64,000 bases of DNA from Trypanosoma brucei (Eukaryota): NCBI GenBank assembly GCA_000002445.1, contig CM000207.1:2016001-2080000 (forward strand), written 5' to 3'. The position numbers and the translations under genes are program-made. Positions 2,316 to 24,036 of the stretch are shown here, one piece after another. The notes beneath the pieces were generated by a model. That model was not told where the DNA came from, made no database searches, and saw only the letters and a list, made by a program, of their open reading frames with translations. The stretch's first letter is position 1; each line of letters opens with the position of its first letter.

Positions 2316-2564
2316 ATGGACTACGAAGAACCAGGACAGGCCACACGAGAACTCACTACGTTTGTGCAGGGTCTCCTTCAAAACATGCAGACTCGCTTCC
2401 AAGAAATGTCGGATACGATTATCACTCGTATTGACGAAATGGGCACCCGTATCGATGACTTGGAAAAGAACATTGCGGAGCTCATGCAACAGGCGGGTCC
2501 TGATGAGGAAGCGGCTCAAACAGCTTCGGCCCCTAAAGATAAGAAAAAGAGTAAGGGGAAATAA
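2316..2564 (+). CDS. HSBP1: Heat shock factor binding protein 1 (HSBP1-like coiled-coil protein)
   Basis: The 82-aa product contains [42 protein letters not shown]. This is near-collinear with metazoan HSBP1 ([38 protein letters not shown]). A polypyrimidine tract with AG lies directly upstream. Confidence 0.85.
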
Positions 2565-2716
2565 AATAATATTATGGCCATATGTTTTAGACACAACGAT
2601 GCTCATTCCTTCTCTTTCTTCTCTTTCCCAGTTTCCATTTTAACATCCACACACTTCATTTTGATGTACGACTTCGCCGTATTTGTTAATTTACTGACTC
2701 TTTGCTCTGTTTTGGA

Positions 2717-2738
2717 TTTTTTTTTTCCCCCCCCCCCC
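2717..2738. repeat. T10-C12 homopolymer junction
   Basis: ttttttttttcccccccccccc, in the HSBP1 3' region. Confidence 0.9.
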
Positions 2739-3830
2739 TCCTTCTGTTCATCTCTTCTCGACTTCTGTGTCCACAATTTTGCCTTGTCCAAACGTTTGAA
2801 CGAATTTAATGTCCGAACCTGTGTGGCAAAGCAGTTGCGGCACGCACTGACGGAACAACAACAACAATAGCAGGAGCACACAAGCTACATTTGCACATGT
2901 ATTCACGTACGTGTAGGTGTAGGTGTGTTGAAGAGTGAAAGAGGTGGATGAAGTTAGGGGGAAATTAAATAAAGCGGAAGCAAAAAAAATAAAAATGAAC
3001 AAATGGATGGATGGATGGAAATAACTGGAACTTCCCGTGCAGTAAAGAAATGTCAACGGTAACAGAGAAAAAAAGGGGGGTATTTGAGAGGGGAAAGGGG
3101 AGGAAGAGCACACGCACATAAACGCTAAGATGCATATTTATTAATGTATACTCTTATGTATGTGTTTGTGTGTTTGTGTGTGCGTGTGTCATAAATATTA
3201 TATATAAATATTTGCTGCTTCTGTTTTGTTTTGCTTTTGTTTTCTGTTTCTTTGGGCTGTGGACGGGTCCTCTTTTTCTTTTTTTTTTGTGTGTGTGTGT
3301 TTATTTGCCTGCGTGATTGATTGTATCCTTTTGTTGCTTTCTCCTTCCTCAGATTATGTGCTTGAGGTAAAGTACGGCAATTTGCTATTTAAAAAAAATG
3401 AAACAGAAACAAAGTTGGGAGGATAATTATATTTGTGTGTGTGAGTGTGCGTGTAAGAGGTTGTCTACATTTACTGAAGAGTGAAATATAAATTGAGAGA
3501 CAACTTCTTTTCTTTTCTTCTTTCGAAGTAAAAAGTTGATGGTAAAAGTTGATGAGAGGCAAAGAAAATATGAACACTTAGTAGAAAGCACACGAAAGGA
3601 AAAAGGAGGAAGAAAATATTTAAGGAAAGATAAAGGAAAGGGGGGAAAAGAGAGGAGCACCGTCTGAAGCGTCAAATATTTTTTTTCTTCGAAAGGAGGG
3701 ATAATTTTTCTTTTAATTGCTAAAAGAAAGTATTGCCAAAGGAAAAGGGTGGATGCGAACACGAAACTTTCGCCTGATTCGCCAAATTGAAGTCGTTCAT
3801 TTCTGTGGCTTATGCTGGCCTACTGCAAAA

Positions 3831-3890
3831 CTTCTCCATCTTTATTTCTTTTTTTTTCTTTTCGTTCTCTCGGTACCTGAATAACGTTAG
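3831..3890 (+). promoter_or_regulatory. Polypyrimidine tract plus AG upstream of the ankyrin-repeat gene
   Basis: A tttatttctttttttttcttttcgttctctc tract is followed by AG about 50 nt before the ATG at 3938. Confidence 0.4.
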
Positions 3891-3937
3891 ATGCAGGAAG
3901 TTCACTAGCCACTGGATTTCGCCACATATTAATTCTC

Positions 3938-4486
3938 TTGCATCATATGACAACAGGTGGAAAGCAAGAAACCATTTACGACGCGTGCCGAAACGGTAAT
4001 GAGGCGCGAGTGGAGGAATATGTGCGGCACGGTGGCTCCGTAGTCGAATACGACAAATTCCGGATGACACTCCTGCACCACGCGGCATACTCGGGTAATA
4101 TTCGAGTTGTTGATTTCATTCTTTCCGCTCAATGTTCTGGACAACAGCAACAACAGCGTATTGACCTGGATGCAGCGGACGCAGATGGGTGGACTCCGTT
4201 ACACTATGCGGCCGATCGAGGGTTTGTGTCCATTACCGCAAGGCTACTGGAAGAAGGAGCAAATGTGAATGCGAAAGATGGAATGAAGCGCACGCCGCTT
4301 CACCTCGCAGCGACCAGCGGTCGCGTGGATGTTGTGAAATTGCTGCTGAGCAGCGGAGCAATGCGGGGAGTGAAAAATGTGGTTGGACTAACAGCGTTGG
4401 AGTGCGCCAAGGCTAATGACCAAGTTGATACAGTGAGTGTCCTTGAGCACTGTTTCACCAAGCGACAGCATGCAGAGGTGTGTTAA
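3938..4486 (+). CDS. Ankyrin-repeat protein
   Basis: There are tandem ANK repeats: TLLHHAAYSGNIRVVDFIL, WTPLHYAADRGFVSITARLLEEGANVNAKD and RTPLHLAATSGRVDVVKLLLSSGA. Confidence 0.8.
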   Translation: MHHMTTGGKQETIYDACRNGNEARVEEYVRHGGSVVEYDKFRMTLLHHAAYSGNIRVVDFILSAQCSGQQQQQRIDLDAADADGWTPLHYAADRGFVSITARLLEEGANVNAKDGMKRTPLHLAATSGRVDVVKLLLSSGAMRGVKNVVGLTALECAKANDQVDTVSVLEHCFTKRQHAEVC

Positions 4487-4859
4487 GTGTAAAATAAGTA
4501 AAAAAAAGGAAAGGGAAGGGTAAAATTACAGGGAAGAGAAATGGTGAGCGCCCTTTCGATTTGTTGTTTGTTTGTTTTTATACAGAGCGCACTGCATCCC
4601 CCCCCCTTGTTGTTTGGCTCGTATATGTTTTTTTCGGAATTTGGATTGTGTGCCAGTTAGAGTGCATGGATTGCCTTGTCACCGGTACCTTCACAGTACC
4701 CCCCCCCCTTTCTTCATAATGTCTTGCTCCGGTTCCCTGCTGTTTCACTTGGGCAAAAGGGATAGGGAAATTTTTTCTTCGATAGGGAGGAAACAGTAAA
4801 GCGTTTTGCCTTCTTAAAGACAAGGCTTTCACTTACCTGTAAGTTTTCCCCCGTAAAGC

Positions 4860-6179
4860 ATGGAGAATTCGTGTCCAGGGGAGGCGAGAACGCCACCACG
4901 AAATTCTAACGATGGCGGGGGAGGGGTTGAGGCAATTCTCACCATGCAAACCATGTCACCACTTGACAAAGTTCGTCAGTTCTTCGAGGAGCAGGAGGTT
5001 CAACTGCAAACTACAGCGGGTGATGAGCAAACCAATACTAACCCTCTGTTGGATGATGTGTTAGACACTGAGCCAATACGGGGTGAGTTGTTCCTCTCTG
5101 ATGAAGTGGAGGCAGATGAGGTTACTGCCTCGCACGTTGATCCGCAACAGAAAAAAAGAAAGAGGCAGGGCACTGCCAGTGGAGAGAAGGGGCGAAAAGA
5201 GTCCAGAAAGGCACGGCGGGCAACTGCTTCCGACGACACTGTTCATAAGAGCAGCAAATACCGCGAAAAGGAGGATGCAAAGCCAATGGTTTTGTTCCGT
5301 CAGTCGCAAAAGGCCCTCCGTAAGGAAGCGAGGCATGTGAGTATGAAGGAGGTTCTCTGCCGTTCTTTGCCTGGTCTTAACGATGGGATAAACGAGCGAA
5401 GTAATTTATTTACTCCATCAGGCGTATCACAAGCGTCTTCCACATGGTCGTCAGCAGTGGCGGCAGACATAACCAACCGATTCCTCTCCAACGTCCAGCA
5501 AAAGAAAAAAGAAACCTTTGAGCGGTTGCTGCAACGCGAAATGACAAATTCACAACTGTCATTTTCTAGCGCGGGAGAAGGGGACGCGAGTTTGGGTGGA
5601 GTGATGGGGGAACTTGTGATTGGTGACGAATCAGCCGTCATGACGCCACCGGCTAGTGACTCCAACTTTCTCGCAGGGGAAGGAGCTCTGGTTGAGTTGA
5701 CGACAGAAACCGCACCCTCCCTTTCGTCCACGCAGGATCCATTCATGTCCTGCAATGGCATGTCCCAGGGGTTTGTAGAACTGGACGAAGAAACAGAGCA
5801 GGCGCAATCCGATGCTCTGGTGCGCAAGCACGAACTCTGGCGTTTGCGGCAGAGACACCTGCGGGCACAACGAAGCGGAGAGGAGAGCAATCCCCAGGTG
5901 AAGTTGGAAAAGGATGATCACCAGCACAAATCTCTGTCATCGACTTTCACCGGTACCACGCTGTCGACACTCTCCACGGGAGCATTACAAGGCGTTGCAA
6001 CGCATGACGCTGACGGGGCTATCGATACCGTGCTGACGCACCGTAGTGCTCTGAAGCGGACCATCAGCGCAACACTTGAGCTATCCACTGATCACATCGA
6101 CATGATACGCCGCGCAAACTCTTTCGACAACATATCTTGCCAGCGGATTGTGGTTTTCGAAGCAAAGAAGGGGAAATAA
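4860..6179 (+). CDS. Hypothetical protein, Ser/Thr- and charge-rich
   Basis: The 439-aa ORF runs in the same direction as the array. No recognisable domain was found. It has a basic K/R stretch (QQKKRKRQG) and S/T-rich segments. Antisense ORFs over it look like shadows. Confidence 0.55.
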   Translation: MENSCPGEARTPPRNSNDGGGGVEAILTMQTMSPLDKVRQFFEEQEVQLQTTAGDEQTNTNPLLDDVLDTEPIRGELFLSDEVEADEVTASHVDPQQKKRKRQGTASGEKGRKESRKARRATASDDTVHKSSKYREKEDAKPMVLFRQSQKALRKEARHVSMKEVLCRSLPGLNDGINERSNLFTPSGVSQASSTWSSAVAADITNRFLSNVQQKKKETFERLLQREMTNSQLSFSSAGEGDASLGGVMGELVIGDESAVMTPPASDSNFLAGEGALVELTTETAPSLSSTQDPFMSCNGMSQGFVELDEETEQAQSDALVRKHELWRLRQRHLRAQRSGEESNPQVKLEKDDHQHKSLSSTFTGTTLSTLSTGALQGVATHDADGAIDTVLTHRSALKRTISATLELSTDHIDMIRRANSFDNISCQRIVVFEAKKGK

Positions 6180-7064
6180 ACTATCGACCAGCGCCTCTAG
6201 TTTCATATGCAAATGCGCACGCGCGTGGATTGGAGTGTGTTTGCCCGCGTCACTCCACATTGGTGATTCCCCACATATAAAGGAGCACGTGTATGTGTGC
6301 CGTTGCTGTGGAGAATGTATAGAAGTTTCACTCTTTTATTTGCAATCGCTCCCATCGCCATGGTCAATTGCCATTTCACTCGTTTTCGTTTCGTTGGTAC
6401 TTGTGTAATATTCTTCGCGGCCGCACGAGAGATCAAATAGATTACGCTTTCTATAAACCTCATTACAGAGAGGGATGGGAACTAAGAGGGAGGAAATTGC
6501 CTGCACCCGCGCATTGTATGGGAAAGATACTCACTACATTTGTGTTTTCTTTGATTGTTTTTTTTTTCGAAACGTTTTCCGCTTTGGAAAATGTGCTCGG
6601 CAGGTAGATACACCAATTCACATATCATTTTAATTCGACCAAAATATGAGTCAACGGAGTATTAAAAGAATGCGTATATTTGTGGTGGCGCATGTAACCA
6701 TTTTTTTTCCGTTGATAGTGTGCAGTGTTAAAGGAAGGCGAAAATGAGTAAACACTTCGGCATTTCTGATATTTATTGTTTCTTAACAATTGATGTTGCA
6801 GAAGTGATAACGTGCTCTGGGTTTTACCACGGCACGGCACGCTATCTTCCTCATTAGGACACCAACCATGCAGCTCACCCCTTTGTGTACCGTACTTACT
6901 AGTATGAGACAATACTTTTGTCAGTATATATACTGATGAAGTGTTATGTGTGGACTGCCGGGTTTCCCCTAATGATTTCTTGCTTTTGCCTGTCTTTTAT
7001 AAATACGTGTGTATATACATCTCTTATTTATTTGTGTGACTACGCGTATTAGAAGTGAAGGGGA

Positions 7065-7811
7065 ATGACAGACTTGGACGCGACCAAAATTTCGATCATA
7101 TCGGTTAAGAAGGCAAACCCCAAATTGTTAGCGGAAGTTGGGGACGAAGCGAACGAGCTTCCCGTAACCGTGAAGGAAAAGCGAGCGCATGAAAAGCGAT
7201 GTAACTTCTGTTGCATGTCCATCGGATTACTCTTTTCAGCCTTTATGGTTGTCATGGTGGCGAGCATTGGCACTGGTATGGCTGTTTACACAGAGAAGCG
7301 CGCTCGCTACACCGTTAACGGAGTTATGCGTCAGGTCGGTTGGATTTCTCTGCCGGGCCTTCTCGTTGGCACCACCCTTCACTACTTCCTTTCTGAAGCG
7401 ATGTGGAGCGGGCGACGGAATAGTTGGGGTCAGGCGTGGATGAAGGCCTTTGCCACAAACACTGCCATTTGGTCGGTCGCCATTGGCACAGGGACTTTAC
7501 TGTGGCGCAAAGGTTTACTCATAAACGCCGCCGGCCGGCGGTTGTATTATCGTTATCCAATTCCTTCTGACCCACTGGAGTATCGCTTGGTGCGCAGTGA
7601 AGCGCAGTTTTTTACTGGTATGGGATGGTCCTATTGGTTGAGTGGTGTGGTGAGCGGACAAGTTGGACTCGTAAGTTGTGTGGGATTTTGTGTCTGGAAC
7701 GATCGGCCATACTTTATGATGAACCCGCATGGAGGGTACGCTCGGAGGTGCATGCCCAACTGGCGCAGGGAACAACTTGCTCGCCAGGCAAATGTCTCAC
7801 TTTCAGAGTAA
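7065..7811 (+). CDS. Hypothetical tetraspanning membrane protein
   Basis: The 248-aa ORF has four hydrophobic helices: LLFSAFMVVMVASIGTGMAV, ISLPGLLVGTTLHYF, AIWSVAIGTGTLLW and WLSGVVSGQVGLVSCVGFCVW. No family was assigned. Confidence 0.5.
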   Translation: MTDLDATKISIISVKKANPKLLAEVGDEANELPVTVKEKRAHEKRCNFCCMSIGLLFSAFMVVMVASIGTGMAVYTEKRARYTVNGVMRQVGWISLPGLLVGTTLHYFLSEAMWSGRRNSWGQAWMKAFATNTAIWSVAIGTGTLLWRKGLLINAAGRRLYYRYPIPSDPLEYRLVRSEAQFFTGMGWSYWLSGVVSGQVGLVSCVGFCVWNDRPYFMMNPHGGYARRCMPNWRREQLARQANVSLSE

Positions 7812-8184
7812 TTAAAGTAATGGAGTACGCATAGTGTCGTCTATCGTGTAGTGAAGGAAAACGTCGCTTAAGCGTGCTATTGTCATTATTATTGTTATAC
7901 CTTTCCTGTCACATCCGGTCCCGTGTATATTCCCTGAATTTACAGTCACTTTGTCACACGCATAAAAAGTGGTTAACTACCTTGTCATTATTCACGATGA
8001 ACCATATATTGTTATTCCCTCTAACACTCTGAGTTTGACCGTGTCATTCCACGCCCTCTTTCAGCGCGTGGTTTATCATTGCACATGTTTCTCTTGTTTT
8101 GCAGGACCTTTTATTACTTAAGGTTTCTGAGGACCAACGATCAATAGTATGAACCAGAAGCGAAAACAATAGTGCTTAGCGATC

Positions 8185-12957: not shown

Positions 12958-13809
12958 ATGGGATACAGGTTGTTGCGTGACAATGTCTTCAAGGCGAGTT
13001 GTGCCAAAGACTCCGACGAGCTTCGAGCGCGGCGAGAGCCGACGATGTTATACAAAGAGGATCAACTAGTTGCCCCAGCGTCAGGCACTGAGCGACGCTA
13101 TACATTGGTACTTGATTTAGACGAAACTGTAATATATGCTCGCGAGGGTCCCCTTTATGCTCGCGCATATTTGAAGGAGTTACTTTCTTTCATAAGGAAA
13201 AACTTTGAAGTTATTGTATGGACAGCCGGTGAGCGGGAGTATGCCGAATGCATCTTGGAAGAGATAAATATACGCAATACAGTTCGACACCTCATACACC
13301 GCCACAAAACTTGGTTCAGTTTTGATGATTATACGAAGGATTTGACAAAGCTCGGACGAAACTTGGACTACGTTATCATTATCGAAAATTCCCCGGACTG
13401 CGTTCGCACGAACCCACAGAACGGTATTATTGTCGATGACTTCAGAGTGAGCCAAACCCCACCCATGGAAGAAGCGGAAGCAGCATGGGAGGGAGACGGA
13501 AATAATAGAGAAAGGAAGGCTGGAAGCAGGAGCGACAGCAAAACACGACGTCAGGTGACAGATCGAACTCTCCTTCTCCTAAGGGAAGTATTAAAGGCGA
13601 TGGTAGAGAGTGGTGAAACGGTCCCTGATTTTCTTGCAAAGTGCCCGTTATTAACTCAACGGCGCGTCATAGGTTCTGACGGTAGCCAAATTCAAACATA
13701 TCATCTCGGGACCCGCCGCAAACGAGGGATACCTCAACTGTGCGCCTCATCACCTAAACGAAGGCGGGTAACGAAGGAATCGGCTCCCGGTGCCACCTGC
13801 ACGTCATAA
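12958..13809 (+). CDS. NLI-interacting factor / FCP1-like (CTD small phosphatase family) HAD phosphatase
   Basis: The product contains YTLVLDLDETVIYAR, matching the DxDxT HAD motif and DLDETLVHS of the CTDSP/NIF family. It also has VIVWTAGEREYAECILEEIN and IIIENSPDCVRTNPQNGIIVDDF. Confidence 0.85.
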   Translation: MGYRLLRDNVFKASCAKDSDELRARREPTMLYKEDQLVAPASGTERRYTLVLDLDETVIYAREGPLYARAYLKELLSFIRKNFEVIVWTAGEREYAECILEEINIRNTVRHLIHRHKTWFSFDDYTKDLTKLGRNLDYVIIIENSPDCVRTNPQNGIIVDDFRVSQTPPMEEAEAAWEGDGNNRERKAGSRSDSKTRRQVTDRTLLLLREVLKAMVESGETVPDFLAKCPLLTQRRVIGSDGSQIQTYHLGTRRKRGIPQLCASSPKRRRVTKESAPGATCTS

Positions 13810-15728
13810 ATGTTGGTCGCTGAGCGGATGGCCCACCTGAAAGAAAGAGAGAGAAGGTGGGAAGGATAAATCAGAGAGGGAGTTTTCCTCGCTGCGCCTT
13901 TACCCTTCTAATATTGTTATTCTTGATCTATATCTATTTATAAAGATATATTGCATATATATATATATATATTATTGGGGGAAAGTGACACAATTTAACA
14001 CAAAGATTAGGTGTTATGTGTCGTTGTCTCATGGAAAAGTTGCTTCGCCTCACAGTTCATTAAAAAAAAGGATGGGATTGAAGTATCTTTCCACCAACAA
14101 GTATTTAATAATAAAAGAAAGAAAAGAGGGTGTAGATTACAAAACCCGGGTGTTGAGACGAACGTGGGTACGCCTGCCTGCGCATGAGTAAACTTGATTA
14201 TACCTTCGTACACTGAGAGTTTTTGCACATGACGCTTTGTAACTAATATTGTGTTGTCTCCTCTAGCTCTCCTTCCACTTGTTCTTTAGCATATTTCGTA
14301 TGTCGCTGGATCCGGTTTGTTCGATTTTACTTTGCGAGAGTTCGATGGGGGGCTGACGTCCGCTGGCAGGGAACGTAATTGTTGAACCTGAGGAATTTGC
14401 ATTCGGTGAAACTGTTGTTGGGCGGTCTTCGCTTTCAACTGCTGTATCTTTTGGTCTGGGCCCTTGAGTTGTTTTCGTTGTTGTAAGTTGTATGGGTCCG
14501 CCCTTCGTGGGGATTTTGCCCGCTGGGAGGTTCCACTACTCGGGTTGGAGGGCTGTGACTGATCTGTGGTCGATGTGATTCCTGTTTTGGTAGTGTGTTA
14601 AGCTGGAATCCCAGGTGAGCTAAATAGGCGTTTTTCCAGTTGGTCAATCCGGTTATAAAGTTGCTGGACTTGCTTTCGTATCGCCGCCGCTTTTTTCACG
14701 TTCCTGTTCCGCGTTACGGTGGCACTGTTCCACTCGTTGGGTTTCGCTGCTTCTGTGGATAAGGTATGCTGTTATGGCTACTGCCTATGTTACGCAAAAA
14801 AAAAAAATAGCACAAAAGGTGACACAGCGGGACCGGCTACAGCGACTGCCGTTTTGCGAACTATCTGTTACCTGTGATACGGCTATATAGATCCTGTGCC
14901 TTTAAGGGTAGTGGCCCGATTGGAGATTGAAAGCGTATCTTGCGAAGTGTTTTGGGGCCTCCAACAGTTATCCTCATCGAGGTGTTAATGCCCGAAAAAT
15001 GGCGGTCACGCGCTCACACCGCGCCCACTAAAAATTCGCCGCTAGACACTAAGCGGGAAGATGCGGACCGAGCTTAAAGGAGTGTTGTGTTGTTCGAGCT
15101 AAAACAACCCTAGCGCTCTGTGTGTATCCAGTTCTTATTACTTTCTTGTTTGTGTCTTCTGCACCAATCCATCAAGTTATATAGAAGGCCATATATGCGT
15201 GGTTCATGGTTATTATCATAGGCAATCCATTCACGGTGCTCACGATATGGGTGTCTTCATCTCAAATCTCTCTGACAAACTGTCACGTTGGTAAGAAGTA
15301 TAGTCTATTCTACACCTATCAAAGAGCAGGGCGCCCGACGGTATTGTCATCACTTCGCTGGTCCAAAGATTTTGTAGTAGATAAGCTTGAGATACTGTGA
15401 GCACATAATGTATAGTGTGGTGCGGACACTCACCTCCTTTAAAGAAACTTGGCGGTATACAAGCTGTAGTCTGTGTAATATGTTTGCATTCACGGCTATC
15501 TTGTTCAGAAATATGTGCAATCTGACCAGTGATACTTTCTTTCTGCGAGATGGCTCATTGGCAGGATTGAGTGCTGAGGGAGCGGAGTAAAAGTGCCACA
15601 TTATTTTTTTTTTAATTACGTAAGTCGTTGGTGGTGATTGCTACTATAGCGTTCAGTTCTTCATTTTGTTTTTTTTCTCTTTTACCATGGCGTATCGTAG
15701 GACTCTGTTGTCAATTGCAAAAGCAATT

Positions 15729-15730
<2 letters not shown>

Positions 15731-15778
<48 letters not shown>
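15731..15778. repeat. (GTT)16 trinucleotide microsatellite
   Basis: A perfect gtt x16 run inside the strand-switch region. Confidence 0.95.
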
Positions 15779-15779
<1 letters not shown>

Positions 15780-16301
15780 TGGGGGCCACTGAATGGAGTG
15801 AAACGGCGAGTGTGCGTTTTGTGGCTTCCGCTTCTGCACTGGTTATAAGCATGGTATCATTATAGATGCTGTCAGGGTCCCATTATTCACCATAAGCATG
15901 GAAGTCTTTCGGAGATTGGGCGTCACTCACTGTAGCAAACCATCTTTATGTACTTTTATCACTAATGATAGCCATATCAGGTGATTGTTGTGTGATCGGT
16001 TCCGGGTGGAGCGACTTTCGAGGATTGTTTGTCTTAACGATCTTCCATAAATCTTTAAGGGTCCGTCGCATCGAGTTGTTGAGGATATCATCTTAGTCAA
16101 TTTTGCGGTTTTGTCACCAGTGAGTCAAGCGTCTTCGTAGCGACTTGACTGTATATACGTAACGAAGCCAATTAACACCGAGTGTAGATGCCACTGAGCG
16201 GAATTTTGACCAGAGTTTTTCGAGTTCGATTACTTTTAGCGTCCTGGGGATAGATTCGTCCCCTGTTAGATGAGCTCGTGTTCTTGTTAAAGTTCTATCC
16301 C

Positions 16302-16871
16302 CTATGTGTACGGTATGTTTGTTTCTGTCCCATTTGATGCCGATATAGCCGTATTGTCATCTATACTCCGTTTCGCCATAGGTAACACGGGTTTCTCGGG
16401 CTCTCTTGTTTGTACATTTGTATACACATCCGCGGACTTTGTGGTAGGGGGCGTAATTCGTATGTCGTGGATCCACACGTCGATGATTTTTTGGACGTGG
16501 GGGAGTAGTTGCTCGTCCGTTCGTACGATACGCGGGTCCTCGGCTAGGACTAATAACAATAACTGCATAATTTCCAGTGATCCTACATAGCCGGTAGACA
16601 GCCTCGTGAATTCGTACGCTACTCCATCTTCATCAAAAAACCCAAAGTTTATCTGGGCGCGTGTTGATAATTCATCTTGGAAGGCCGCCGCCTCAAGGCC
16701 CATTGTAAGTGCTGGTGGTGCCCATACCCTAGATAGCAACTCCTGTTTAAAATATAGGCATAAGCTCGGACAATAACCATCTGCATATACTTCATCGTTA
16801 ATTGCTTGTGGCCATAATATCATTCGCCGTTGCCATTTTTTCGCTTCAACTCCATAACGGTATTTGGCCAC
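16302..16871 (-). CDS. Orphan ORF in the strand-switch region (hypothetical, possibly a gene fragment or pseudogene)
   Basis: The 189-aa ORF has a non-repetitive, protein-like composition and contains EVYADGYC. No homology was recognised. ORFs of similar length overlap on the opposite strand, so coding status is uncertain. Confidence 0.2.
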   Translation of the reverse strand: MAKYRYGVEAKKWQRRMILWPQAINDEVYADGYCPSLCLYFKQELLSRVWAPPALTMGLEAAAFQDELSTRAQINFGFFDEDGVAYEFTRLSTGYVGSLEIMQLLLLVLAEDPRIVRTDEQLLPHVQKIIDVWIHDIRITPPTTKSADVYTNVQTREPEKPVLPMAKRSIDDNTAISASNGTETNIPYT

Positions 16872-17210
16872 GCATAGGCTATAATATAGTGTGGATCAAC
16901 CCTACCAATAATATGTGCGTCTTCCAGTTGCCGTGCATCCTCTCACCGAGGCTTGAATGCCGTCTCACATTCGATAATTATGGCATTGTCCTTGGGCATC
17001 CTTTACAGTGCGCTCCATCTTTTTTAAAAAAAAACAAGAGAAATATACACATCCGTTGTCGAAACCGAGGACACGTCCATACAATCAATTGGAAGACGTC
17101 TGCCCCTCTCCTTTTCTCTTGATTCGTCATGCTTCCGGGAGGGGGACCTATGGCTGGGCAAACCAGTTAGGAGACGGCAATCGGACGACAATATGTCATG
17201 ACATGTAATA

Positions 17211-17621
17211 TCACGCAGATGCCAGGTCCGAGTAAATCCAGTCTATGCCGTTTCCAGTGCATGGGACGCCGTTTTGCACTTCCATCATTGTCTCGTCGAT
17301 TTGGTCCAGTCGTTCGGTGATGCGAGTTCGCCCGTTTCTAAGAGACATAAGCGGTTCTTTGAGGTTGGCGAGGCGGTTTTTGACACCCTGCAATTCCTCG
17401 CAGGATATCTTAATGCCTTTAATTTGGTTAATCGTATTGGCATCCAGACGGTTGATGGATTTAACTAACTCGTCCCAGTGTCCGTGTACGACCGTATTTA
17501 GAATCTCTGGACCGACCGAGTGAGTAAGAGAGTGAACCAGTTGAGAGGTCTCGCCGACTGTGATCGACGGTCGCTTTATTTGGGTACGGCGACTCTCACG
17601 AAAGCAATAAGAAAAGTGCAA
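17211..17621 (-). CDS. Orphan ORF in the strand-switch region (hypothetical, coiled-coil-like)
   Basis: The 136-aa ORF has heptad-like content (INQIKGIKISCEELQGVKNRLANLKEPLMSLRN). No homology was recognised, and overlapping plus-strand ORFs make it ambiguous. Confidence 0.2.
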   Translation of the reverse strand: MHFSYCFRESRRTQIKRPSITVGETSQLVHSLTHSVGPEILNTVVHGHWDELVKSINRLDANTINQIKGIKISCEELQGVKNRLANLKEPLMSLRNGRTRITERLDQIDETMMEVQNGVPCTGNGIDWIYSDLASA

Positions 17622-19523
17622 AACGCATATTCACATTCAACGGCTCGCGTTGGCCGGAAAATTCTGGAGGGAACGCAGTTTGTCAGCACGTAGTTAACGT
17701 GCGGGGGGCGGTGCTGTGCGAACTGTGCTTATGATGCTTTATAAAATGATATAAACCAGGCGAGATCTGCATTCATGAAGACCGTCTGTTTCCGGATCGT
17801 GGGGTAGCCGGCGTGTGTGGTGGATGGAACCCTGACCCGCGCGTGGGAAGGCGGTGCAACGCGACCAGATCAAGCAGCTTGCGGGCGTTGCTGACTAATA
17901 GTTGTTAAGAGGCAAACCTGTTGGTTTGGAGGACTTTGGGGCGCACCCGGGTGGAGATGTTTCAGATGCGGAAGGGTTGGAAGAGTTGGAAGGGAGATGC
18001 GAATCCATCATCTTACGCGAAGTGGGAGGCACGAAAAGGAAGCACGGCAACTGTAGCAAAAGCAACGTGAATGCCAGTGGTGTGTTTGCGTTGTTTCCGC
18101 GGCGCTGGAAAGAGTGCAAAGACCGGAAAAATAGAGTTGCGGTTCATGTAAAACCGTATGCGTGCAATGCCCGGTAGTGAAGCAGGATTTAAGAAAAAAA
18201 AAGAGAGATAAACATGCGGGGAGGAAGTTTACGAGTTCAACATGTGAAAGGTGTTTCGTAGCAGGGGCTCTGATAATGCACATCAACCTCGTGAATATGC
18301 ACGGCCCCGTGGCACCGCTAAAGGGACTACGAGCAGTGGAGGGAAAGTGGAGTTAGCCGTAGCCGCGCCGGTGTTGAAACCAAAATAAAAAAAAAGGATG
18401 ACATGGAGGTAACAGTTAAGGAAGGAGAGGATAGAGAGAACAGGGTGGGGTTGGAATAAAATGTTCCTAGTAAACTTTTGATGTTCACGGGGCACGTGGG
18501 ACTCCAAAGAGTAAGGAGAGGTGCGCACTTAAGGCACACACAAGAAAAATGCATACTGAATCCGATTGCGCGCTCCGAGGGGTTTCCTGACGCTTTTATA
18601 AGGAAGTGGAAAGTGTGAAGTGAAACCCACCAGTGCCCCATACTGCGGCTAAACGTAAGCGAGGCGAGTTGGTCTAAAAGGTTTAGTAGGAAGTACACAC
18701 GGCGATGGAAAGAAGGACGTTTACAACAAATTGAAGTTGGGCATCCAAGGATTGCTGAGCCACTTGCCCGAATGCACTGCCGTGGAGAAGCTGAAGATGA
18801 AGCATGAACTAATAGGCTTGACGAAGAAAGTGTCTGATGGGTTCTCTGCCTGTGCTCCCCAGCAGAGAAGGCCCAGACGAATAGAGAAAAAAAAACTCAG
18901 CGAAAAAGAAATTCAATCTAAAAAGAGAAGGGGGTTATCTTCTCACAGGGGGAATACCGACCATCGGAATTGCCACCTTTGGAGTTTTTTTTTGTTAAAA
19001 AAGGGATATAAATATTCTCTTATCTTTGAATGCAGCATTGCCTTTGAGAACTTGAAGAAAAAAAAAGTAGCGAAAGAGGTATTTCAGTTCTTTGCGAAAA
19101 CACAAGTATGTAAGAAAACTCAAGTGCGAAGAGGCCAGTGGTGACAAACACACATATGAAGACCATAAAATTAAGGCTCCTTGTCATCGTGTTCAAGTAC
19201 GGCAAAACAGTTGCTTGCTGATACGTTTACTATTTAAAAATAAAAACATTTTCTTTTTTGCAAAAATAACACAACTACTGCTAAGAAGGTAAACAAGCTG
19301 TTTTACGGGCGTGTCGTCCCTCTGCCGGCATTCCAAACCCTCAAACGAATATTTTGGTTAGAAGGAGCGAATACGCGGCGATGGGATGTATGTCTTTTGA
19401 AAATAAATAAAAAAAAATAAAGAAGTTAAGTGCACACTAGTGCTTTGGAAAAAAAAAAAAATAATAACAATAATAGTAAAAGGATCAGAAAATAGTCCTC
19501 ATTTACATATCCAACACGCACCG

Positions 19524-20093
19524 TTATGACATCATTAACATCGCGGAAACTAAGAGCAGCAATGGAACAACGTTTGTGCTTAACGATGCCGCCAACACCT
19601 CTGTGCCACCTCCATTGGACTCACACTCTCCACCGTCTACGCACGTGTCGGTCTTCGTTACTTCCGTTACATCTTCGGGATCTTCGATGTCATCCTTCTG
19701 CAGGCCATCATCATCACTTTTGACAGCAGGGCTTTTTGTGTCAACATTTGTTCCCTCAACTGCTCCTTTGGTGCCTGAGTTCCCCCCATTCCCCTCTTGA
19801 AGGTTGTTGTCATCACTTTTGTTGGTCGGACCTTTGGGTTTGGCACCTGCTTCTTCATCACTTTTGCTGCCATCGGGATATTCCATATCTTTCTCATACG
19901 GGATGCTGGCCTCCTCCTCTTCTTCTTCTTCTACGTCAGGCGGATCCTCAATGTCTCCTCTACTAACGCCAGGATTGTTGAGGAATTTATTCACCAGCCC
20001 TGCTGCTGCCCCCTTTGCTTCCACTTCTCCATTTAAAAGAGAGCCATTCATGAGCATCGCAACCAAGTATGCCAAAAGAGCCGTTAGCCTCAT
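19524..20093 (-). CDS. Small acidic secreted or GPI-anchored-type protein (candidate surface protein)
   Basis: The 189-aa ORF has an N-terminal signal-peptide-like segment (MRLTALLAYLVAMLMNGSLLNG) and a D/E/G/K/N-rich low-complexity core with an EEEEEEE run. The C-terminal hydrophobic tail (AASLSTNVVPLLLLVSAMLMMS) resembles a GPI-attachment signal. Codon structure looks coding. Confidence 0.45.
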   Translation of the reverse strand: MRLTALLAYLVAMLMNGSLLNGEVEAKGAAAGLVNKFLNNPGVSRGDIEDPPDVEEEEEEEASIPYEKDMEYPDGSKSDEEAGAKPKGPTNKSDDNNLQEGNGGNSGTKGAVEGTNVDTKSPAVKSDDDGLQKDDIEDPEDVTEVTKTDTCVDGGECESNGGGTEVLAASLSTNVVPLLLLVSAMLMMS

Positions 20094-20842
20094 CTATTCT
20101 TTTTTCTCTTTTTTTTCGCGTCCCAATGTTGCCTTATCTTGATTTAATTATTTATTTTGAAATAAATACGGGGAGAGCACACCAGGCATTTATATCGAAG
20201 GAATGCTCCCAGAAAAAGTTGGTAACTATCAATGTGAGGCTGTATCAAAAGCAATGTTTGTCCAACCCAAAGGTTTGGTACGATTTGGACAAACTTCCGC
20301 CCCTCCGCTATGCTGAGTTTGTCTCCCACATTCCGTGGGGAATGGACCAGGCCGTGATGAAACTACGGCGGTTCCAGAACCCCCCCCCAAAGGGAAAATG
20401 TTACGGATGCAGCCTCTTTTTGTGTAAAATGTGAAAAAAGTTTTTCGAAAACATGCTTTGAAAGACGATATATGGTTGCGAATTCTCTCCCCCTCCCCCC
20501 CCCCAAAAGACCACATTAACCCTTCGCAGCTGGTCAAATACTCAGGGGTAACTCGTCGTCTTCCCCAGTGCATGCGTTTGCGCGTGTCGGCAGCTGTGGC
20601 GGAGCGTCGATGTCCCTAGTGGGTGCTCGCGTGGCTCAATGCGGAGGTGGGGATAAGACCGCATGATGCGGGAATGTAAGACTCTGACTGGGGACATCAT
20701 TATAAACAACCCTCCCCTCCATGCCTTCAAAAAACGCAAACAGGGTTACACCTCCAACGCCCATGTCGCAAACGAAGGAGCGAAGCCTTGCTGATTTCGG
20801 TTCCAGGAACGATACCATACAAATTTTTAGTGTTGACGCGCG

Positions 20843-20913
20843 GCGCAGTTGGTCTAGTGGTAGAATTCTCGCCTGCCACGCGGGAGGCCCGGGTTCGATT
20901 CCCGGACTGCGCA
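20843..20913 (+). tRNA. tRNA-Gly(GCC): tRNA-Gly (anticodon GCC)
   Basis: The sequence is GCGCAGTTGGTCTAGTGGTAGAATTCTCGCCTGCCACGCGGGAGGCCCGGGTTCGATTCCCGGACTGCGCA. It folds as a cloverleaf with a 7-bp acceptor stem (GCGCAGT/ACTGCGC), a D-arm, an anticodon stem CTCGC/GCGGG with loop CTGCCAC (anticodon GCC), and a T-arm GGGTTCGATTCCC. The body from the D-loop to the T-arm matches what I recall of the eukaryotic cytoplasmic tRNA-Gly-GCC. Discriminator is A, with no encoded CCA. Confidence 0.93.
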
Positions 20914-20916
20914 TCG

Positions 20917-20921
20917 TTTTT
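20917..20921 (+). terminator. RNA polymerase III oligo-T terminator of the tRNA-Gly gene
   Basis: A TTTTT run begins 4 nt after the tRNA 3' end (gcaTCGTTTTTctg). Confidence 0.7.
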
Positions 20922-21657
20922 CTGCCGCATGCAGAACCCACCATTTTTTTTTACTTATTTTGGAACGAACTTGCTATTTTTTTTTGTTTGGTTGCTGTTG
21001 TTTGTTTGCCATCATTTCGCTACGGTGACGATAATTCCCCGCCACGCTTTGTCTCCACATTTGCAAAACTTACGCTAACGGAGGGTGCTGTAGAAATATG
21101 AGCGTCCCCCGGAGGCACCGCAAGTCCGCTTGGTACATCAAACCTCAGAGACGAGAAGGGACGAAACTCGTTTAGACCCGATGTTGGTCGGAACGGGCCA
21201 TTCACACAGGTTTCACCGTCGCCGACCCAGCTCACCATACAAAACTACCCCTCCCGCTTAACATCCACGGACACCGAGACGCTCATATGATAATAACTAC
21301 GATTTCGCAGTTGCTGTTTCACAGCGTGTATGAACTGTTTCAAACCACACACGCCAAATGACGCGACACAACAAACTAATAAACACACAGTAAAAAAAAT
21401 GAATGAGCATCCAACTGCGCAAATTCATTGATAGAGAACGCCTGTAAACAAAACCACAAACAATGCAGCCATGTCCACACTAGAAGCGTATAGCACTGTT
21501 ACCTCTCACTAAAGTGTTAAACGGGAACTGCAGCTGCTGCGCTACAGAGTCGATAGTCACAGCGTCCCTCGGTGTTTGCATCCGGAGAGATGATGACGGG
21601 AGGGAACCATTTCCAGCTTCTTTTTCCCACTTCTTTTTTTTTCAGGAGCTTGTAACG

Positions 21658-22050
21658 CTATGCACTCTCTCCGGAGCGTCGCGAGACCTCCAATTCCTCC
21701 TCAACGGTGTCCACATCGAACCCAAGACCCCTCATTTCCTCAAGGTACCGTTGCGTTGGATCACCACTGGCGTCCATTGCTTCTTTTCGTGAGCGCTGCC
21801 TCCGCATGGCATACCCGAAGGCGGCCACACCACCGCCAAACACAAAAAATGCACGCAAGCCGCGCCACGCCAATCCCCGGAGAATCTGTGTGTTTTGCTC
21901 AAAGCACTCCGAACCAATCTTCTCCGCGATTCGCATATTCTGCCGCGTCCGCTCATCAAGCCCCAACGGCGGTTTTTCACCACCACCACCACCATCCCCG
22001 CTCATTGCCATACGCCAAGCTGAATGCGTTTCGGCTAAATAATTCCACAC
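21658..22050 (-). CDS. Small hypothetical membrane protein (single glycine-zipper transmembrane helix)
   Basis: The 130-aa ORF runs with the minus-strand array; the probable start is the internal Met (MAMSGDGGGGGEK). It has a Gly-rich N-terminus, one helix (GLAWRGLRAFFVFGGGVAAFGYAM) and a charged C-terminus. A polypyrimidine tract lies on the minus strand about 100 to 140 nt upstream. Overlapping antisense ORFs add uncertainty. Confidence 0.3.
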   Translation of the reverse strand: MWNYLAETHSAWRMAMSGDGGGGGEKPPLGLDERTRQNMRIAEKIGSECFEQNTQILRGLAWRGLRAFFVFGGGVAAFGYAMRRQRSRKEAMDASGDPTQRYLEEMRGLGFDVDTVEEELEVSRRSGESA

Positions 22051-23538
22051 ACTATGTCCCCCTTAACTGTATGAGTGTTTCCCCGATCGCTTCCTTTATC
22101 CGCTTGCTTGTTTGGAGAAGGTACTTCGTTCGCCCTATTGCCCGTGTATGCAGCAAGGTAAACAACAAAAAAACACATGAAAGAAGTGGAGTGGGCCACT
22201 GGAGATGCAAATGTCTTCGCCATCGAGTACACACTCATGTTGTTGGTTAAAGGCATCCGTCTGCTTTGAGTACGGCCTGTTCTGCGTTAAGTGGGGTGGA
22301 AACATAATAATTTTAAACATGGCGCCATCTCAAGGAGTGGTGAAACTTCTGCCCACGCCGGCAAGATGTGTACAGTACGGTGCGACAGTTGATAACGCGC
22401 AACACAACGCGGAAAGGGAAGGGAAGGGAAAGTAAAGTAAAGGGGGCGGGAGGGGGAAAGAAAAAGGCTAAAACAAATTTGAGGTGGAAGCAGCGGGTAT
22501 AAAAAGTAAAATGATTGGGGAGCGATTGTCTCCTCACAATGCCACTTTCCTCCCTCGAAAAAAAAAAAAACTCGCGCGCAGCTCACAAAAAATGTTTCCT
22601 TCAAATGCGTTTCCCCTTCCCTCACAACTCTACAACTTGTTCCCAACGCGCCACCGGCAGGAAAATATCTCGGAGAGGGGGAAAAAGAAAAGAGGCCGAT
22701 GCGCAAAAAACGACGGCGCGGAGCATCACGTGGTTATCGGCAACCGCTGTGGTGGTCGAGCCGATGTTTGGAGGTCGTAAAAACCAGCGATGATCCGCAG
22801 ACACGAACGTGTGAAGTTTTCGCCCTCTCGTAGGCGAAAGTGGCGATAAACCACAAACTTTTTTTTTGTGTATTGAGAGAGCGGAATTCCGGTTTTACCC
22901 CTTTGAGTTGTTCTTTGGTCGTGAGGGATTGAAGAGGGGGACAAAACAAGATAGCGGAGAGCACCTCATTTCCTCCCTTCATCATGCCGCTAGCCATTCC
23001 TCCTCATCGTCATATACGCCCAACGCGTGGCACTCCCCTTCAATTGTTATGAACAAAAATTCAATAAAAGCAGGCAAGGATACCGAACAAAAACAGAAAA
23101 GAAAAAAAGACAACCAAACGGGAAACTGCCGCCGAGGACTCTAGCCACGTTGACCTGCAAATGCTGCCTCACTTCAGCCGGATGCCATTTCACCCCTCCG
23201 TACCTCAAGGGAAAGAAGATTTGGCCGCTTTTACTTCTTTTTTAAAAAAAAAGAAAAATATCTCTGCCTTCTTCCTCTTTGGCGCCACAAAGGTGAAGGG
23301 ACGTAGCAAGTGATCAAATACAGTTAGATAGATATGGCGGATAGAAACACCGCAGTAGAGTTATACGTATATGCGAGCGTGTATTATAGATGTCACAAAG
23401 GCAATTCCACGTGCCTAGGTCCATACAGCCAATAGTTTGTGGTTTCCCCACGCACGCACCACCTTTTACCACGAAAAAATTAAAAAAAACCCGTACACCG
23501 AGAGTGAAGCAACAGCCACATCATCGTGCCTATCGGGT

Positions 23539-24036
23539 TTAACTTCGAAGCCTTGGTCGCCGAATGTGCAGCTGACGCGCGGGACTGGTGTTTCGGCTAC
23601 CCGCGCTGCTGACACTAGGGGCACATACGCTCGAGGCGCTCGTCGGGAGGTTGATTAGCGATGGTTGAGTCTGCAGACGACCTCCAAACGGCCTGCGTGC
23701 GGAAGGACTCGACATTCTCGTTGTGCGGCTGTCCCGTCCCGGTGTTGCTTCCCTTTGAGTGTCTCCCCCCGTTCCCCTCATTTGAAGGTTAGATGTTGGG
23801 GAGGGGCGTCGCAACGGCGTGGTGGGACACTTTTGGTGTAGAGTATCCACTTTCTTCCCCAGGATAGTCACGACTGCCTGGAGGTTGCGGCAATCTGCCT
23901 CTCTATCTGCTAACTCCTGCGTGACTCTCGCAAGTTTTTCTTCAAATGTGTCCCTCTGGCGGCGCAGCTCGGCTTCAAATATAACCTTCTGCCGAAGAAG
24001 CTCCGCACGGAAAGCATCTAACTCATCAGAACTCAT
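23539..24036 (-). CDS. Hypothetical coiled-coil protein with Ser/Pro/Arg-rich tail
   Basis: The 165-aa ORF has an N-terminal heptad region (LDAFRAELLRQKVIFEAELRRQRDTFEEKLARVTQELADREADCRNLQAVV) followed by an S/P/R/T-rich C-terminal half. Orientation fits the array. Confidence 0.4.
   Translation of the reverse strand: MSSDELDAFRAELLRQKVIFEAELRRQRDTFEEKLARVTQELADREADCRNLQAVVTILGKKVDTLHQKCPTTPLRRPSPTSNLQMRGTGGDTQREATPGRDSRTTRMSSPSARRPFGGRLQTQPSLINLPTSASSVCAPSVSSAGSRNTSPARQLHIRRPRLRS

What the first reader, a model, noticed from the sequence alone, without database searches (positions are those of the whole stretch)
13810..19523. Long convergent strand-switch region with non-repetitive sequence and two orphan ORFs
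Array polarity flips here. Plus-strand genes end at 13809 and minus-strand genes resume at 19524. The gap is about 5.5 kb. Unlike the AT-rich low-complexity intergenic DNA elsewhere in the window, 14.3 to 18.4 kb is compositionally complex. It carries two protein-like minus-strand ORFs (16302..16871 and 17211..17621) with no homologue I recognise, plus equally long antisense ORFs. In trypanosomatids, convergent strand-switch regions are RNA polymerase II termination zones enriched in base J and the variant histones H3.V and H4.V (established knowledge). They sometimes hold decayed retroelements, RHS pseudogenes or lineage-specific genes. This region could hold a frame-shifted pseudogene, a degenerate ingi/DIRE-type retroelement remnant (note the EVYADGYC motif, a weak echo of an RT YADD box), or a real unannotated gene.
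Basis: partly seen in the sequence, partly recalled or inferred. Interest (0 to 1): 0.55.

Follow-up and report, generated by a model that had tools for sequence, protein, structure and literature searches.

The report
Dead VIPER retroelement in strand-switch region
The larger "orphan ORF" in this Trypanosoma brucei convergent strand-switch region is the decayed reverse-transcriptase/RNase H gene of an extinct VIPER retrotransposon, sitting in brucei-specific DNA where related parasites have a DHHC gene; it is ordinary genomic fossil material, not a new gene.

Summary
The window is T. brucei chromosome 9. The strand switch is real: NIF-phosphatase gene ends at 13809 (+), the next annotated minus gene ends at 19524, and the gap is 5,714 bp of moderate-GC, non-repetitive DNA.

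ORF1 (16302-16871, minus) is not an orphan. An exhaustive HMMER scan found 92 relatives, which are RT/RNase H proteins of kinetoplastid VIPER elements. A family profile built without the T. brucei sequence matches the minus strand collinearly over 17110-15530. The match runs in four reading-frame segments, with in-frame stops and a (TTG)n microsatellite in the RNase H part. RT motif A and C aspartates are replaced. TATE, Ngaro, ingi, SLACS and jockey queries do not match. No tyrosine recombinase, gag, terminal repeats or RHS domain were detected.

ORF2 (17211-17621) is no longer than chance gives, has only a 45-aa ATG-started ORF, and carries a stop codon in two other T. brucei subspecies.

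In T. vivax, T. cruzi and L. major the NIF gene cluster converges on a DHHC gene. T. brucei has about 7.9 kb there instead: the VIPER relic, a brucei-specific ORF and tRNA-Gly.

Low novelty.

The parts
13810..19523 (.). Annotated convergent strand-switch gap between the NIF phosphatase gene (+) and Tb09.211.4070 (-). Outside the relic it is unassigned, non-repetitive DNA.
   Evidence: ORF map. GC 0.41-0.53. AT skew flips from T-rich to A-rich on the + strand at about 17.5-18.0 kb. No Rfam hit. No Pfam family above its curated cut-off in any of the six frames.
15530..17110 (-). Degenerate VIPER-type RT/RNase H pseudogene (retroelement fossil). It covers profile positions 438-940 of 960 in four reading-frame segments.
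   Evidence: The family HMM was built from alignment A1 without the T. brucei sequence. Hits: 17110-16838 (iE 3.8e-5), 16844-16437 (4.7e-41), 16395-15739 (1.8e-25), 15733-15530 (6.7e-3). tblastn with T. congolense RT719 gives E 8e-29 across three frames with 5 in-frame stops. All 21 tblastx HSPs to four VIPER-bearing loci fall in this stretch.
16302..16871 (-). ORF1: the longest surviving open stretch of the RT core (conserved N-terminal box plus motifs A, B and C). Annotated as a 173-aa hypothetical protein in T. brucei-group genomes.
   Evidence: phmmer found 92 relatives. The best are T. congolense (1e-12), Angomonas 'TcC31.12' and Leptomonas proteins; Pfam RVT_1, RT_RNaseH and RVT_3 match several of the 10 relatives scanned. 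Motif comparison: QRRMILWP (family RRRMILWP); GLEAAAFQ (DLKASFYQ, Asp->Gly); RLSTGYVGSLEIMQ (RLPMGHxxSPEIMQ); VWIHDIRI (WIDNIR).
15729..15778 (.). (TTG)16.7 microsatellite. On the minus strand it reads as poly-Thr where the RNase H 'DNT' catalytic region should be.
   Evidence: TRF; HMM alignment.
17211..17621 (-). ORF2: a chance-length open frame just upstream of the RT relic, of unassigned origin. It could be debris of the poorly conserved N-terminal part of the element; this was not demonstrable.
   Evidence: TTG start; only weak coiled-coil Pfam hits below cut-off. 46% of shuffles give an open run this long. In-frame stop in gambiense and equiperdum. Annotated only as a 45-aa 'hypothetical, unlikely'. 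No match to VIPER or TATE YR profiles or to upstream ORFs of other species' elements.
19524..20093 (-). Tb09.211.4070, annotated 'T. brucei spp.-specific protein': hydrophobic N-terminus, acidic low-complexity middle, hydrophobic C-terminus. It forms the right-hand border of the finding.
   Evidence: Exact match to EAN77219.1 / XP_827549.1. Sequence. No homologue in the syntenic loci of T. vivax, T. cruzi, T. theileri or L. major.
20843..20913 (+). tRNA-Gly(GCC) inside the lineage-specific interval.
   Evidence: ARAGORN and Rfam, 59.2 bits. Identical in gambiense and equiperdum. A 97.5% identical copy sits next to the NIF gene in T. theileri. Listed as locus chr09-I in PMC2695483.
21658..22011 (-). 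First minus-strand gene conserved across trypanosomatids (about 117 aa, hydrophobic central stretch). This is the true point where syntenic minus-strand genes resume.
   Evidence: tblastn with the T. vivax 109-aa and T. cruzi 119-aa proteins, E 2e-35 and 2e-40. L. major orthologue. Translation.

Best explanation
The interval is the convergent end of two polycistronic transcription units on T. brucei chromosome 9. At some point in the T. brucei lineage it acquired a VIPER-family retrotransposon, inserted in minus orientation. VIPER is a tyrosine-recombinase, DIRS-like family.

What survives recognisably is about 1.6 kb (17110-15530) of its RT/RNase H gene. This stretch is now broken by three frame changes, at least five in-frame stops and a microsatellite. 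The catalytic aspartates of RT motifs A and C are substituted. ORF1 is simply the longest stretch of that gene that has not yet been hit by a stop codon. ORF2 and the other short ORFs are chance frames.

The relic most likely has no protein function. It persists because the end of a transcription unit is a place where insertions do not interrupt polycistronic expression. Like other T. brucei convergent regions, it may be transcribed on both strands and feed the Dicer-2 siRNA pathway.

Shown: the identity, extent, orientation and degeneracy of the RT/RH relic; its absence from the orthologous strand-switch regions of four other species; and ORF2's interruption in sister subspecies.

Inferred: non-functionality, the insertion history, and any role in termination or siRNA production.
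For: - Homology: 92 relatives of ORF1 at E<=1e-3 in an exhaustive scan. They lie inside longer proteins that carry RVT_1, RT_RNaseH or RVT_3 domains.
- Named relatives are kinetoplastid: T. congolense, A. deanei 'TcC31.12', L. pyrrhocoris, T. melophagium, T. theileri. Diplonema is also among them.
- Two of these relatives are classed as VIPER RT/RH by Ribeiro et al. 2019 (PMC6681497). The A. deanei sequence appears to be the row KV452557 in their RT/RH alignment (compare). The T. theileri locus NBCO01000028 is listed in their copy table.
- Similarity continues beyond both ends of ORF1 in other frames, collinearly, with stops.
- VIPER RT/RH blocks hit the relic: A. deanei 1.6e-16, C. fasciculata 2.3e-13, T. 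cruzi Dm28c 4.7e-6, T. theileri 3.7e-5. TATE and Ngaro blocks give nothing at E<=1.
- Catalytic motif substitutions are seen.
- Synteny: T. vivax, T. cruzi and L. major have NIF(+) converging on DHHC(-). Their gaps are 0.75 kb (T. vivax) and 1.3 kb (T. cruzi), and none has an RT. T. brucei lacks DHHC here and has 7.9 kb instead.
- ORF2 carries a stop in two subspecies and is of chance length.
- Literature: only degenerate VIPER copies are known in T. brucei (PMC6681497). siRNAs arise at all surveyed convergent units (PMC3447711). H3.V and base J mark convergent strand-switch regions (PMC4721609).
Against: - No tyrosine recombinase, gag-like ORF or split direct repeats were detected. Membership therefore rests on the RT/RH alone.
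- ORF1 is intact in all three T. brucei-group genomes compared, with 2 amino-acid changes among 4 substitutions. That is too few to show either constraint or neutrality.
- About 4 kb of the 5.7 kb gap remains unassigned.
- This copy is not among the VIPER copies listed for T. b. gambiense chromosome 9 in PMC6681497, although that list holds at most 15 copies per genome.
- No expression, small-RNA or chromatin data could be consulted for this locus.
Confidence: 0.85

Rival explanations
1. ORF1 is a domesticated, expressed VIPER-derived protein: a 173-aa catalytically dead RT palm/fingers fragment with a new role in T. brucei.
For: The ORF is open and ATG-initiated (173 aa) in the window, T. b. 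gambiense, T. b. equiperdum and T. equiperdum, and gene callers annotate it. A pyrimidine run followed by AG lies about 150-200 nt upstream on the minus strand (about 17022-17045; read directly). A VIPER-derived gene has been reported in the L. braziliensis group, as cited in PMC6681497.
Against: The ORF ends where the ancestral reading frame shifts, not at a domain boundary. The ancestral gene continues out of frame on both sides. Key motif residues are lost. The 2 amino-acid changes among 4 substitutions between subspecies give no sign of constraint. Several neighbouring small ORFs are annotated 'unlikely'. The AlphaFold model is unconfident, pLDDT 41.
Confidence: 0.06
2. Most of 15.5-19.5 kb is one full-length VIPER (gag, tyrosine recombinase, RT/RH) whose 5' two-thirds have decayed beyond recognition. 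ORF2 would be debris of the YR or N-terminal region.
For: Geometry fits. In T. cruzi Dm28c the RT-like domain starts about 2.7 kb downstream of the gag start (coordinates). Scaled from the RT motifs here, gag plus YR would occupy about 17.1-19.4 kb on the same strand, almost exactly filling the gap up to 19524. ORF2 lies directly upstream of the relic in the same orientation. Gag-like ORFs are coiled-coil-like and undetectable in T. brucei even for better copies (0 gag hits in TREU927). ORF2 gives weak coiled-coil Pfam hits.
Against: VIPER and TATE YR profiles and T. cruzi, T. theileri and Leptomonas YR blocks give no hit anywhere in 12-26 kb. By contrast, T. brucei YR relics are commonly detectable with the T. 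cruzi query (36 hits). tblastx to four VIPER-bearing loci finds nothing outside 15.5-17.15 kb. 18.0-19.5 kb has the pyrimidine-rich minus-strand composition expected of the 3' flank of the gene at 19524.
Confidence: 0.2
3. The region holds a degenerate non-LTR retroposon (ingi/RIME/DIRE, SLACS) or an RHS pseudogene.
For: These are the commonest decayed elements in T. brucei and occur at strand-switch regions and centromeres (PMC13508446).
Against: ingi RT and RH, SLACS RT and jockey RT blocks give no hit in the interval at E<=10 except one noise match. Six-frame Pfam scans show no RVT_1, endonuclease or RHSP domain. The only RT present is VIPER-type and is followed by an LTR-type RNase H.
Confidence: 0.03
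4. The interval is a centromere-associated strand-switch domain, as VIPER-rich strand-switch regions are in T. cruzi.
For: VIPER and L1Tc mark KKT-bound candidate centromeres near strand-switch regions in T. cruzi (PMC13508446).
Against: T. brucei centromeres carry AT-rich tandem arrays with ingi or DIRE. The 64-kb window has no tandem array apart from two microsatellites. GC here is ordinary.
Confidence: 0.02

Closest known systems
VIPER (vestigial interposed retroelement) of trypanosomatids; degenerate copies in T. brucei (Vazquez 2000 and Lorenzi 2006, as cited in PMC6681497; Ribeiro 2019, PMC6681497)
   Same: RT/RH sequence family and motif set (RRRxIxWP, DLKASF[FY]Q, RLPMG[HY]xxSPEI[ML]Q, WIDNIR, TDAS...GWG, EA.A). 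The RT is followed by an RNase H. The copy is degenerate, as in every T. brucei copy described. It sits at a strand-switch region.
   Different: Only the RT/RH part is recognisable; no YR, gag or split direct repeats. It is more diverged than the copies found with a 1e-10 threshold (T. cruzi query E 4.7e-6 against 64 kb). It is closest to T. congolense and Angomonas copies (36-40% identity) rather than to the T. cruzi canonical element (31%).
TATE (telomere-associated transposable element; Leishmania Viannia, T. theileri and others)
   Same: Same overall architecture class: gag-like, YR and RT/RH, DIRS-like.
   Different: TATE RT/RH blocks (GRRRLITEP, IDFEAYYD, LPTGARWS, IDNILV) give no hit to the window. 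T. brucei has no TATE hits in the published survey.
DIRS / Ngaro / PAT tyrosine-recombinase retrotransposons of other eukaryotes
   Same: RT plus LTR-type RNase H; no integrase or protease.
   Different: The zebrafish Ngaro1 RT/RH block does not match. Relatedness is only at superfamily level.
ingi / RIME / DIRE non-LTR retroposons of T. brucei
   Same: Also dead or decaying retroelements found in strand-switch regions.
   Different: A different RT clade with an FADD/YADD motif C. No similarity detected here.

Membership tests
VIPER retroelement | RT/RNase H ORF belonging to the VIPER clade rather than to TATE, DIRS/Ngaro or LINE | tested here: met
   Family HMM hits of 4.7e-41 and 1.8e-25, collinear over 17110-15530. 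VIPER blocks score E 1.6e-16 to 3.7e-5; TATE and Ngaro give none; ingi, SLACS and jockey give none.
VIPER retroelement | Tyrosine recombinase ORF upstream of, and overlapping, the RT/RH ORF | tested here: not met
   VIPER and TATE YR profiles and 17 YR blocks give no significant hit in 12-26 kb. Absence may reflect decay or truncation.
VIPER retroelement | Gag-like first ORF | tested here: inconclusive
   The ORFs immediately upstream of the RT in two T. congolense loci (no YR or gag domain found in them) and neighbouring ORFs at the A. deanei and T. theileri loci give no hit. Gag is undetectable in T. brucei even in published surveys (0 hits).
VIPER retroelement | Split direct repeats (A1 ... 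B1-A2-B2) at the ends | tested here: not met
   No direct repeats of 20 nt or more bracket the relic, other than A-runs. Per PMC6681497, T. brucei copies are all degenerate, and split direct repeats were described only for T. cruzi and C. fasciculata, with a putative variant in one B. saltans copy.
VIPER retroelement | Dispersed multicopy family in the same genome | not testable with these tools
   No T. brucei genome search was available. The literature reports 58 RT/RH and 36 YR tblastn hits in TREU927. There is no second copy in this 64-kb window.
Functional reverse transcriptase | Intact motif A Asp and motif C Asp-Asp(Asn) in one open reading frame with RNase H | tested here: not met
   Motif A DLKASF -> GLEAAF. 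Motif C WIDNIR -> WIHDIR. Three frame changes and at least 5 stops. RNase H DNT region replaced by a microsatellite.
ingi/DIRE non-LTR retroposon | LINE-type RT (FADD/YADD box), AP endonuclease | tested here: not met
   No hit with ingi RT/RH. No Pfam RVT_1 or Exo_endo_phos in six frames. EVYADGYC lies upstream of motif A.
RHS (retrotransposon hot spot) pseudogene | RHSP domain | tested here: not met
   Six-frame Pfam scans found no RHSP match.
Convergent strand-switch / RNAP II termination region | Opposed gene clusters meeting; H3.V, H4.V and base J enrichment; dual-strand small RNAs | tested here: inconclusive
   Gene polarity and skew flip are confirmed. The convergence is conserved in T. 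vivax, T. cruzi and L. major. Chromatin marks and siRNAs are not testable here. Chr9 CTU34 of PMC3447711 (6 kb) may be this site, but the coordinates could not be matched.

The most novel reading that the evidence does not exclude
ORF1 is not just debris but a T. brucei-specific exapted VIPER RT fragment. It could be expressed as a 173-aa catalytically dead nucleic-acid-binding protein. Alternatively, the relic could be kept as a dual-strand-transcribed siRNA source that helps police remaining VIPER-like transcripts or define the termination zone.
Probability: 0.05. Interest if true: 0.55.

Novelty: new member of a known kind. Interest (0 to 1): 0.2.

Why it matters
The main value is for annotation. 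A "hypothetical protein" carried in several T. brucei-group genome annotations (173 aa, e.g. TEOVI_000009200) should be relabelled as a VIPER RT pseudogene fragment. Neighbouring "unlikely" ORFs can be discounted.

The case also shows that threshold-based transposable-element surveys miss the oldest VIPER copies, whereas an exhaustive profile search recovers them.

It documents a small lineage-specific remodelling of an otherwise ancient convergent strand-switch region. The DHHC gene is lost from this site, and a retroelement, a tRNA and a brucei-specific ORF are present instead. This fits the known link between retroelements, structural RNA genes and breaks in trypanosomatid synteny. None of it changes current understanding.

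Tried and rejected
- Pfam on ORF1 and ORF2 directly: nothing for ORF1, weak coiled-coil hits below cut-off for ORF2.
- Six-frame Pfam on both strands: no RT, RH, integrase or RHS. Pfam RVT_1 is too distant from VIPER RT to see this relic.
- Word-indexed protein search with ORF1: only itself. The relatives appeared only in the exhaustive HMMER scan.
- Profile search of the word-indexed database: only 10 hits because of the candidate cap.
- Rfam at gathering and E-value thresholds: only the tRNA.
- Direct and inverted repeats: only A/T runs.
- YR search with HMMs on whole frames failed for technical reasons (very long targets). Repeated on 250-aa chunks, it was negative.
- Upstream and downstream ORFs of Angomonas, T. 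theileri and T. congolense elements as gag/YR probes: negative, and those ORFs themselves carry no recognisable YR domain.
- DHHC relic search in the gap: negative.
- AlphaFold2 of ORF1 with a 10-sequence alignment: pLDDT 41, unusable, so no fold search was run.
- Attempt to obtain TREU927 coordinates to match published CTU/cSSR tables: the record was not returned.
- Literature search for neighbouring gene IDs: only the tRNA paper.
- Centromere idea: rejected for lack of tandem arrays.

Full report
**Origin of the window.** The NIF-type phosphatase encoded at 12958-13809 is identical to proteins on T. b. gambiense DAL972 chromosome 9 (FN554972, about 1.74 Mb), T. b. equiperdum and T. equiperdum OVI. 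The ORF at 19524-20093 is an exact match to Tb09.211.4070 of T. b. brucei TREU927. The window is therefore T. brucei chromosome 9.

**Checking the observation.**
- ORF listings confirm a run of plus-strand ORFs ending at 13809 and a minus-strand array to the right. The nearest minus ATG ORF is at 19524-20093, so the gap is 5,714 bp.
- Cumulative GC skew peaks near 19 kb. AT skew on the plus strand changes sign between 17.5 and 18.0 kb.
- GC is 0.41-0.53 in the gap, against about 0.3 in the AT-rich stretches elsewhere in the window.
- The gap contains no repeat family, no Rfam match and no tandem array except (TTG)16.7 at 15729-15778. Nothing in it recurs elsewhere in the window.
- In 1000 dinucleotide-preserving shuffles the longest stop-free run averages 138 codons. 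ORF2 (139 codons) is therefore unremarkable, because 46% of shuffles reach 136. ORF1 (197 stop-free codons) is in the 3.3% tail.
- A further 189-codon run at 18896-18330 lies on the pyrimidine-rich strand of a strongly skewed segment. It is best explained as a composition effect.

**What ORF1 is.** Pfam and a word-indexed search saw nothing beyond the T. brucei protein itself. An exhaustive phmmer scan of 1.84 billion representatives then returned 92 proteins at E<=1e-3. They share 28-42% identity with ORF1 over residues 8-148, and the match always lies inside a longer protein. Several of the ten scanned carry RVT_1, RT_RNaseH or RVT_3 domains. The named ones come from:
- T. congolense
- Angomonas deanei ("TcC31.12")
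- Leptomonas pyrrhocoris
- T. melophagium and T. theileri
- Diplonema

The A. deanei sequence appears to be the row KV452557 in the VIPER/TATE RT/RH alignment of Ribeiro et al. 2019 (compare). The T. theileri locus NBCO01000028 is listed there as a VIPER copy.

**Extent and state of the relic.** tblastn with family members continues past both ends of ORF1 in other frames. For T. congolense RT719:
- aa 204-236 map to 16939-16841.
- aa 227-367 map to 16883-16455, the ORF1 frame.
- aa 385-582 map to 16404-15811, with five in-frame stops. Joint E for these last two segments is 8e-29.

A profile built from alignment A1, with the T. brucei sequence removed, matches the minus strand collinearly:

| Profile positions | Window coordinates | iE |
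|---|---|---|
| 438-532 | 17110-16838 | 3.8e-5 |
| 531-664 | 16844-16437 | 4.7e-41 |
| 678-888 | 16395-15739 | 1.8e-25 |
| 875-940 | 15733-15530 | 6.7e-3 |

So essentially the whole conserved RT/RH core is present but shattered.
- The family motifs RRRMILWP, DLKASFYQ, RLPMGHxxSPEIMQ and WIDNIR read QRRMILWP, GLEAAAFQ, RLSTGYVGSLEIMQ and VWIHDIRI.
- The motif A aspartate and the first motif C aspartate are lost.
- The RNase H TDAS..GWG box reads SDKST*RW.
- The DNT region is replaced by the microsatellite.

**Family assignment.** VIPER RT/RH blocks taken from the published alignment hit the relic:
- A. deanei 1.6e-16
- C. fasciculata 2.3e-13
- T. cruzi Dm28c 4.7e-6
- T. theileri 3.7e-5

TATE blocks (L. 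braziliensis, T. theileri) and zebrafish Ngaro1 give nothing at E<=1. ingi RT and RH, SLACS RT and jockey RT give nothing meaningful.

The other VIPER hallmarks were not found. YR profiles and blocks are negative. Upstream ORFs of other species' elements are negative. No flanking direct repeats were seen. All 21 tblastx HSPs to four VIPER-bearing loci lie within 15.5-17.15 kb. The claim is therefore "VIPER-derived RT/RH pseudogene", not "a VIPER element".

Published surveys find only degenerate VIPER in T. brucei: 58 RT/RH, 36 YR and 0 gag hits in TREU927 at E<1e-10. The listed gambiense chromosome 9 copies are at 1.92 and 2.11 Mb, not at this locus. Given the weak T. cruzi score, this copy would probably fall below that threshold.

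**ORF2 and the rest of the gap.** ORF2 begins at TTG. Only a 45-aa ATG ORF is annotated there, as "unlikely". It carries a stop (VVHGHW -> VVH*HW) in gambiense and equiperdum. ORF1 is intact in the three genomes compared, with 4 substitutions of which 2 change the amino acid. That is uninformative. About 4 kb (13.8-15.5 and 17.1-19.5 kb) remains unassigned. Its skew is what one expects of U-rich downstream regions of the two converging units (inference).

**Synteny.**
- Orthologous NIF loci were fetched from T. vivax, T. cruzi, T. theileri and L. major.
- In T. vivax, T. cruzi and L. major the plus cluster converges on DHHC(-), then a 109-aa gene (119 aa in T. cruzi), then a 172-217-aa gene. 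The gaps are 0.75 kb in T. vivax and 1.3 kb in T. cruzi.
- In T. brucei the 109-aa and 200-aa orthologues are at about 21658-22011 and 23539-24036. They are followed by the P450 reductase and an RRM protein, as in T. vivax.
- DHHC is absent from the window and no relic of it is detectable.
- None of the other loci has a VIPER or TATE RT.
- T. theileri has rearranged differently but carries a 97.5% identical tRNA-Gly(GCC) beside NIF.

The convergence point is therefore ancient. T. brucei has replaced the terminal DHHC gene with about 7.9 kb holding the VIPER relic, Tb09.211.4070 and tRNA-Gly.

**Mechanism.** The best-supported reading is an inert fossil of an extinct retrotransposon, lodged where insertions are tolerated.
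- General T. brucei biology suggests such regions are bound by H3.V and base J and yield DCL2-dependent siRNAs from dual-strand transcription (PMC3447711; PMC4721609).
- A published convergent unit on chromosome 9 spanning 6 kb (CTU34) may be this site. I could not match coordinates.
- A centromere role is unlikely, because T. brucei centromeres have AT-rich tandem arrays and none is present.

**Verdict.** This is a real feature, correctly sensed as retroelement-like, but it belongs to a known family in a known degenerate state. It is of annotation value only.

Noticed in passing
window 19524-20093 (-): Tb09.211.4070, annotated 'T. brucei spp.-specific protein'. It has a hydrophobic N-terminus (MRLTALLAYLVAMLM...), a very acidic low-complexity middle (EEEEEEE, DD) and a hydrophobic C-terminal tail (VVPLLLLVSAMLMMS). 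This resembles a secreted or GPI-anchored surface protein. Most substitutions between subspecies change the amino acid. No homologue was found at the syntenic sites of four other species.
   Followed up: partly
window 13810-21657, compared with L011, L012 and L015: The DHHC palmitoyltransferase gene ends the minus cluster in T. vivax, T. cruzi and L. major. It is missing from this position in T. brucei, and no relic is detectable. Whether it moved elsewhere or was lost is unknown.
   Followed up: partly
window 20843-20913 (+); L013 11348-11418 (-): tRNA-Gly(GCC) lies inside the brucei-specific interval. A 97.5% identical copy sits right after the NIF gene in T. theileri. There is none within 10 kb in T. 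vivax, T. cruzi or L. major. PMC2695483 notes that this tRNA overlaps the 'unlikely' ORF Tb09.211.4080.
   Followed up: partly
window 21658-22011 (-) versus 21660-22250 (+): A conserved small protein gene of about 117 aa, with a hydrophobic central stretch and orthologues in T. vivax, T. cruzi and L. major, lies antisense to a 196-aa plus-strand ORF. That plus ORF is annotated 'hypothetical, unlikely' in TREU927 and gambiense and is almost certainly spurious.
   Followed up: partly
L009 (T. congolense CAEQ01001574) 414-7881; L010 6200-8762: T. congolense VIPER-like RT/RH ORFs are preceded directly by a 444-464-aa ORF with a basic tail. No recognisable tyrosine recombinase lies between them, and two RT copies lie in tandem on one contig. 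The element structure there may differ from canonical gag-YR-RT/RH.
   Followed up: no
P0004, P0027, P0101 (Leptomonas pyrrhocoris, T. theileri): Several VIPER RT/RH proteins are named 'target of rapamycin (TOR) kinase 1' in NCBI or UniRef records. This appears to be a propagated misannotation.
   Followed up: no
window 42000-44000, 50000-52000, 54000-58000: Long AT-rich stretches (GC 0.29-0.34) lie between minus-strand genes. Only an (AT)36 microsatellite at 55533-55604 was reported by TRF, and there are no tandem arrays.
   Followed up: no
window 14289-14760 (-): About 155 codons with a single stop, basic and Gln-rich, with a weak Snapin/Pallidin coiled-coil hit (E 0.004, below cut-off). The stretch lies downstream of the RT/RH relic on the same strand. 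No homologue was found.
   Followed up: partly
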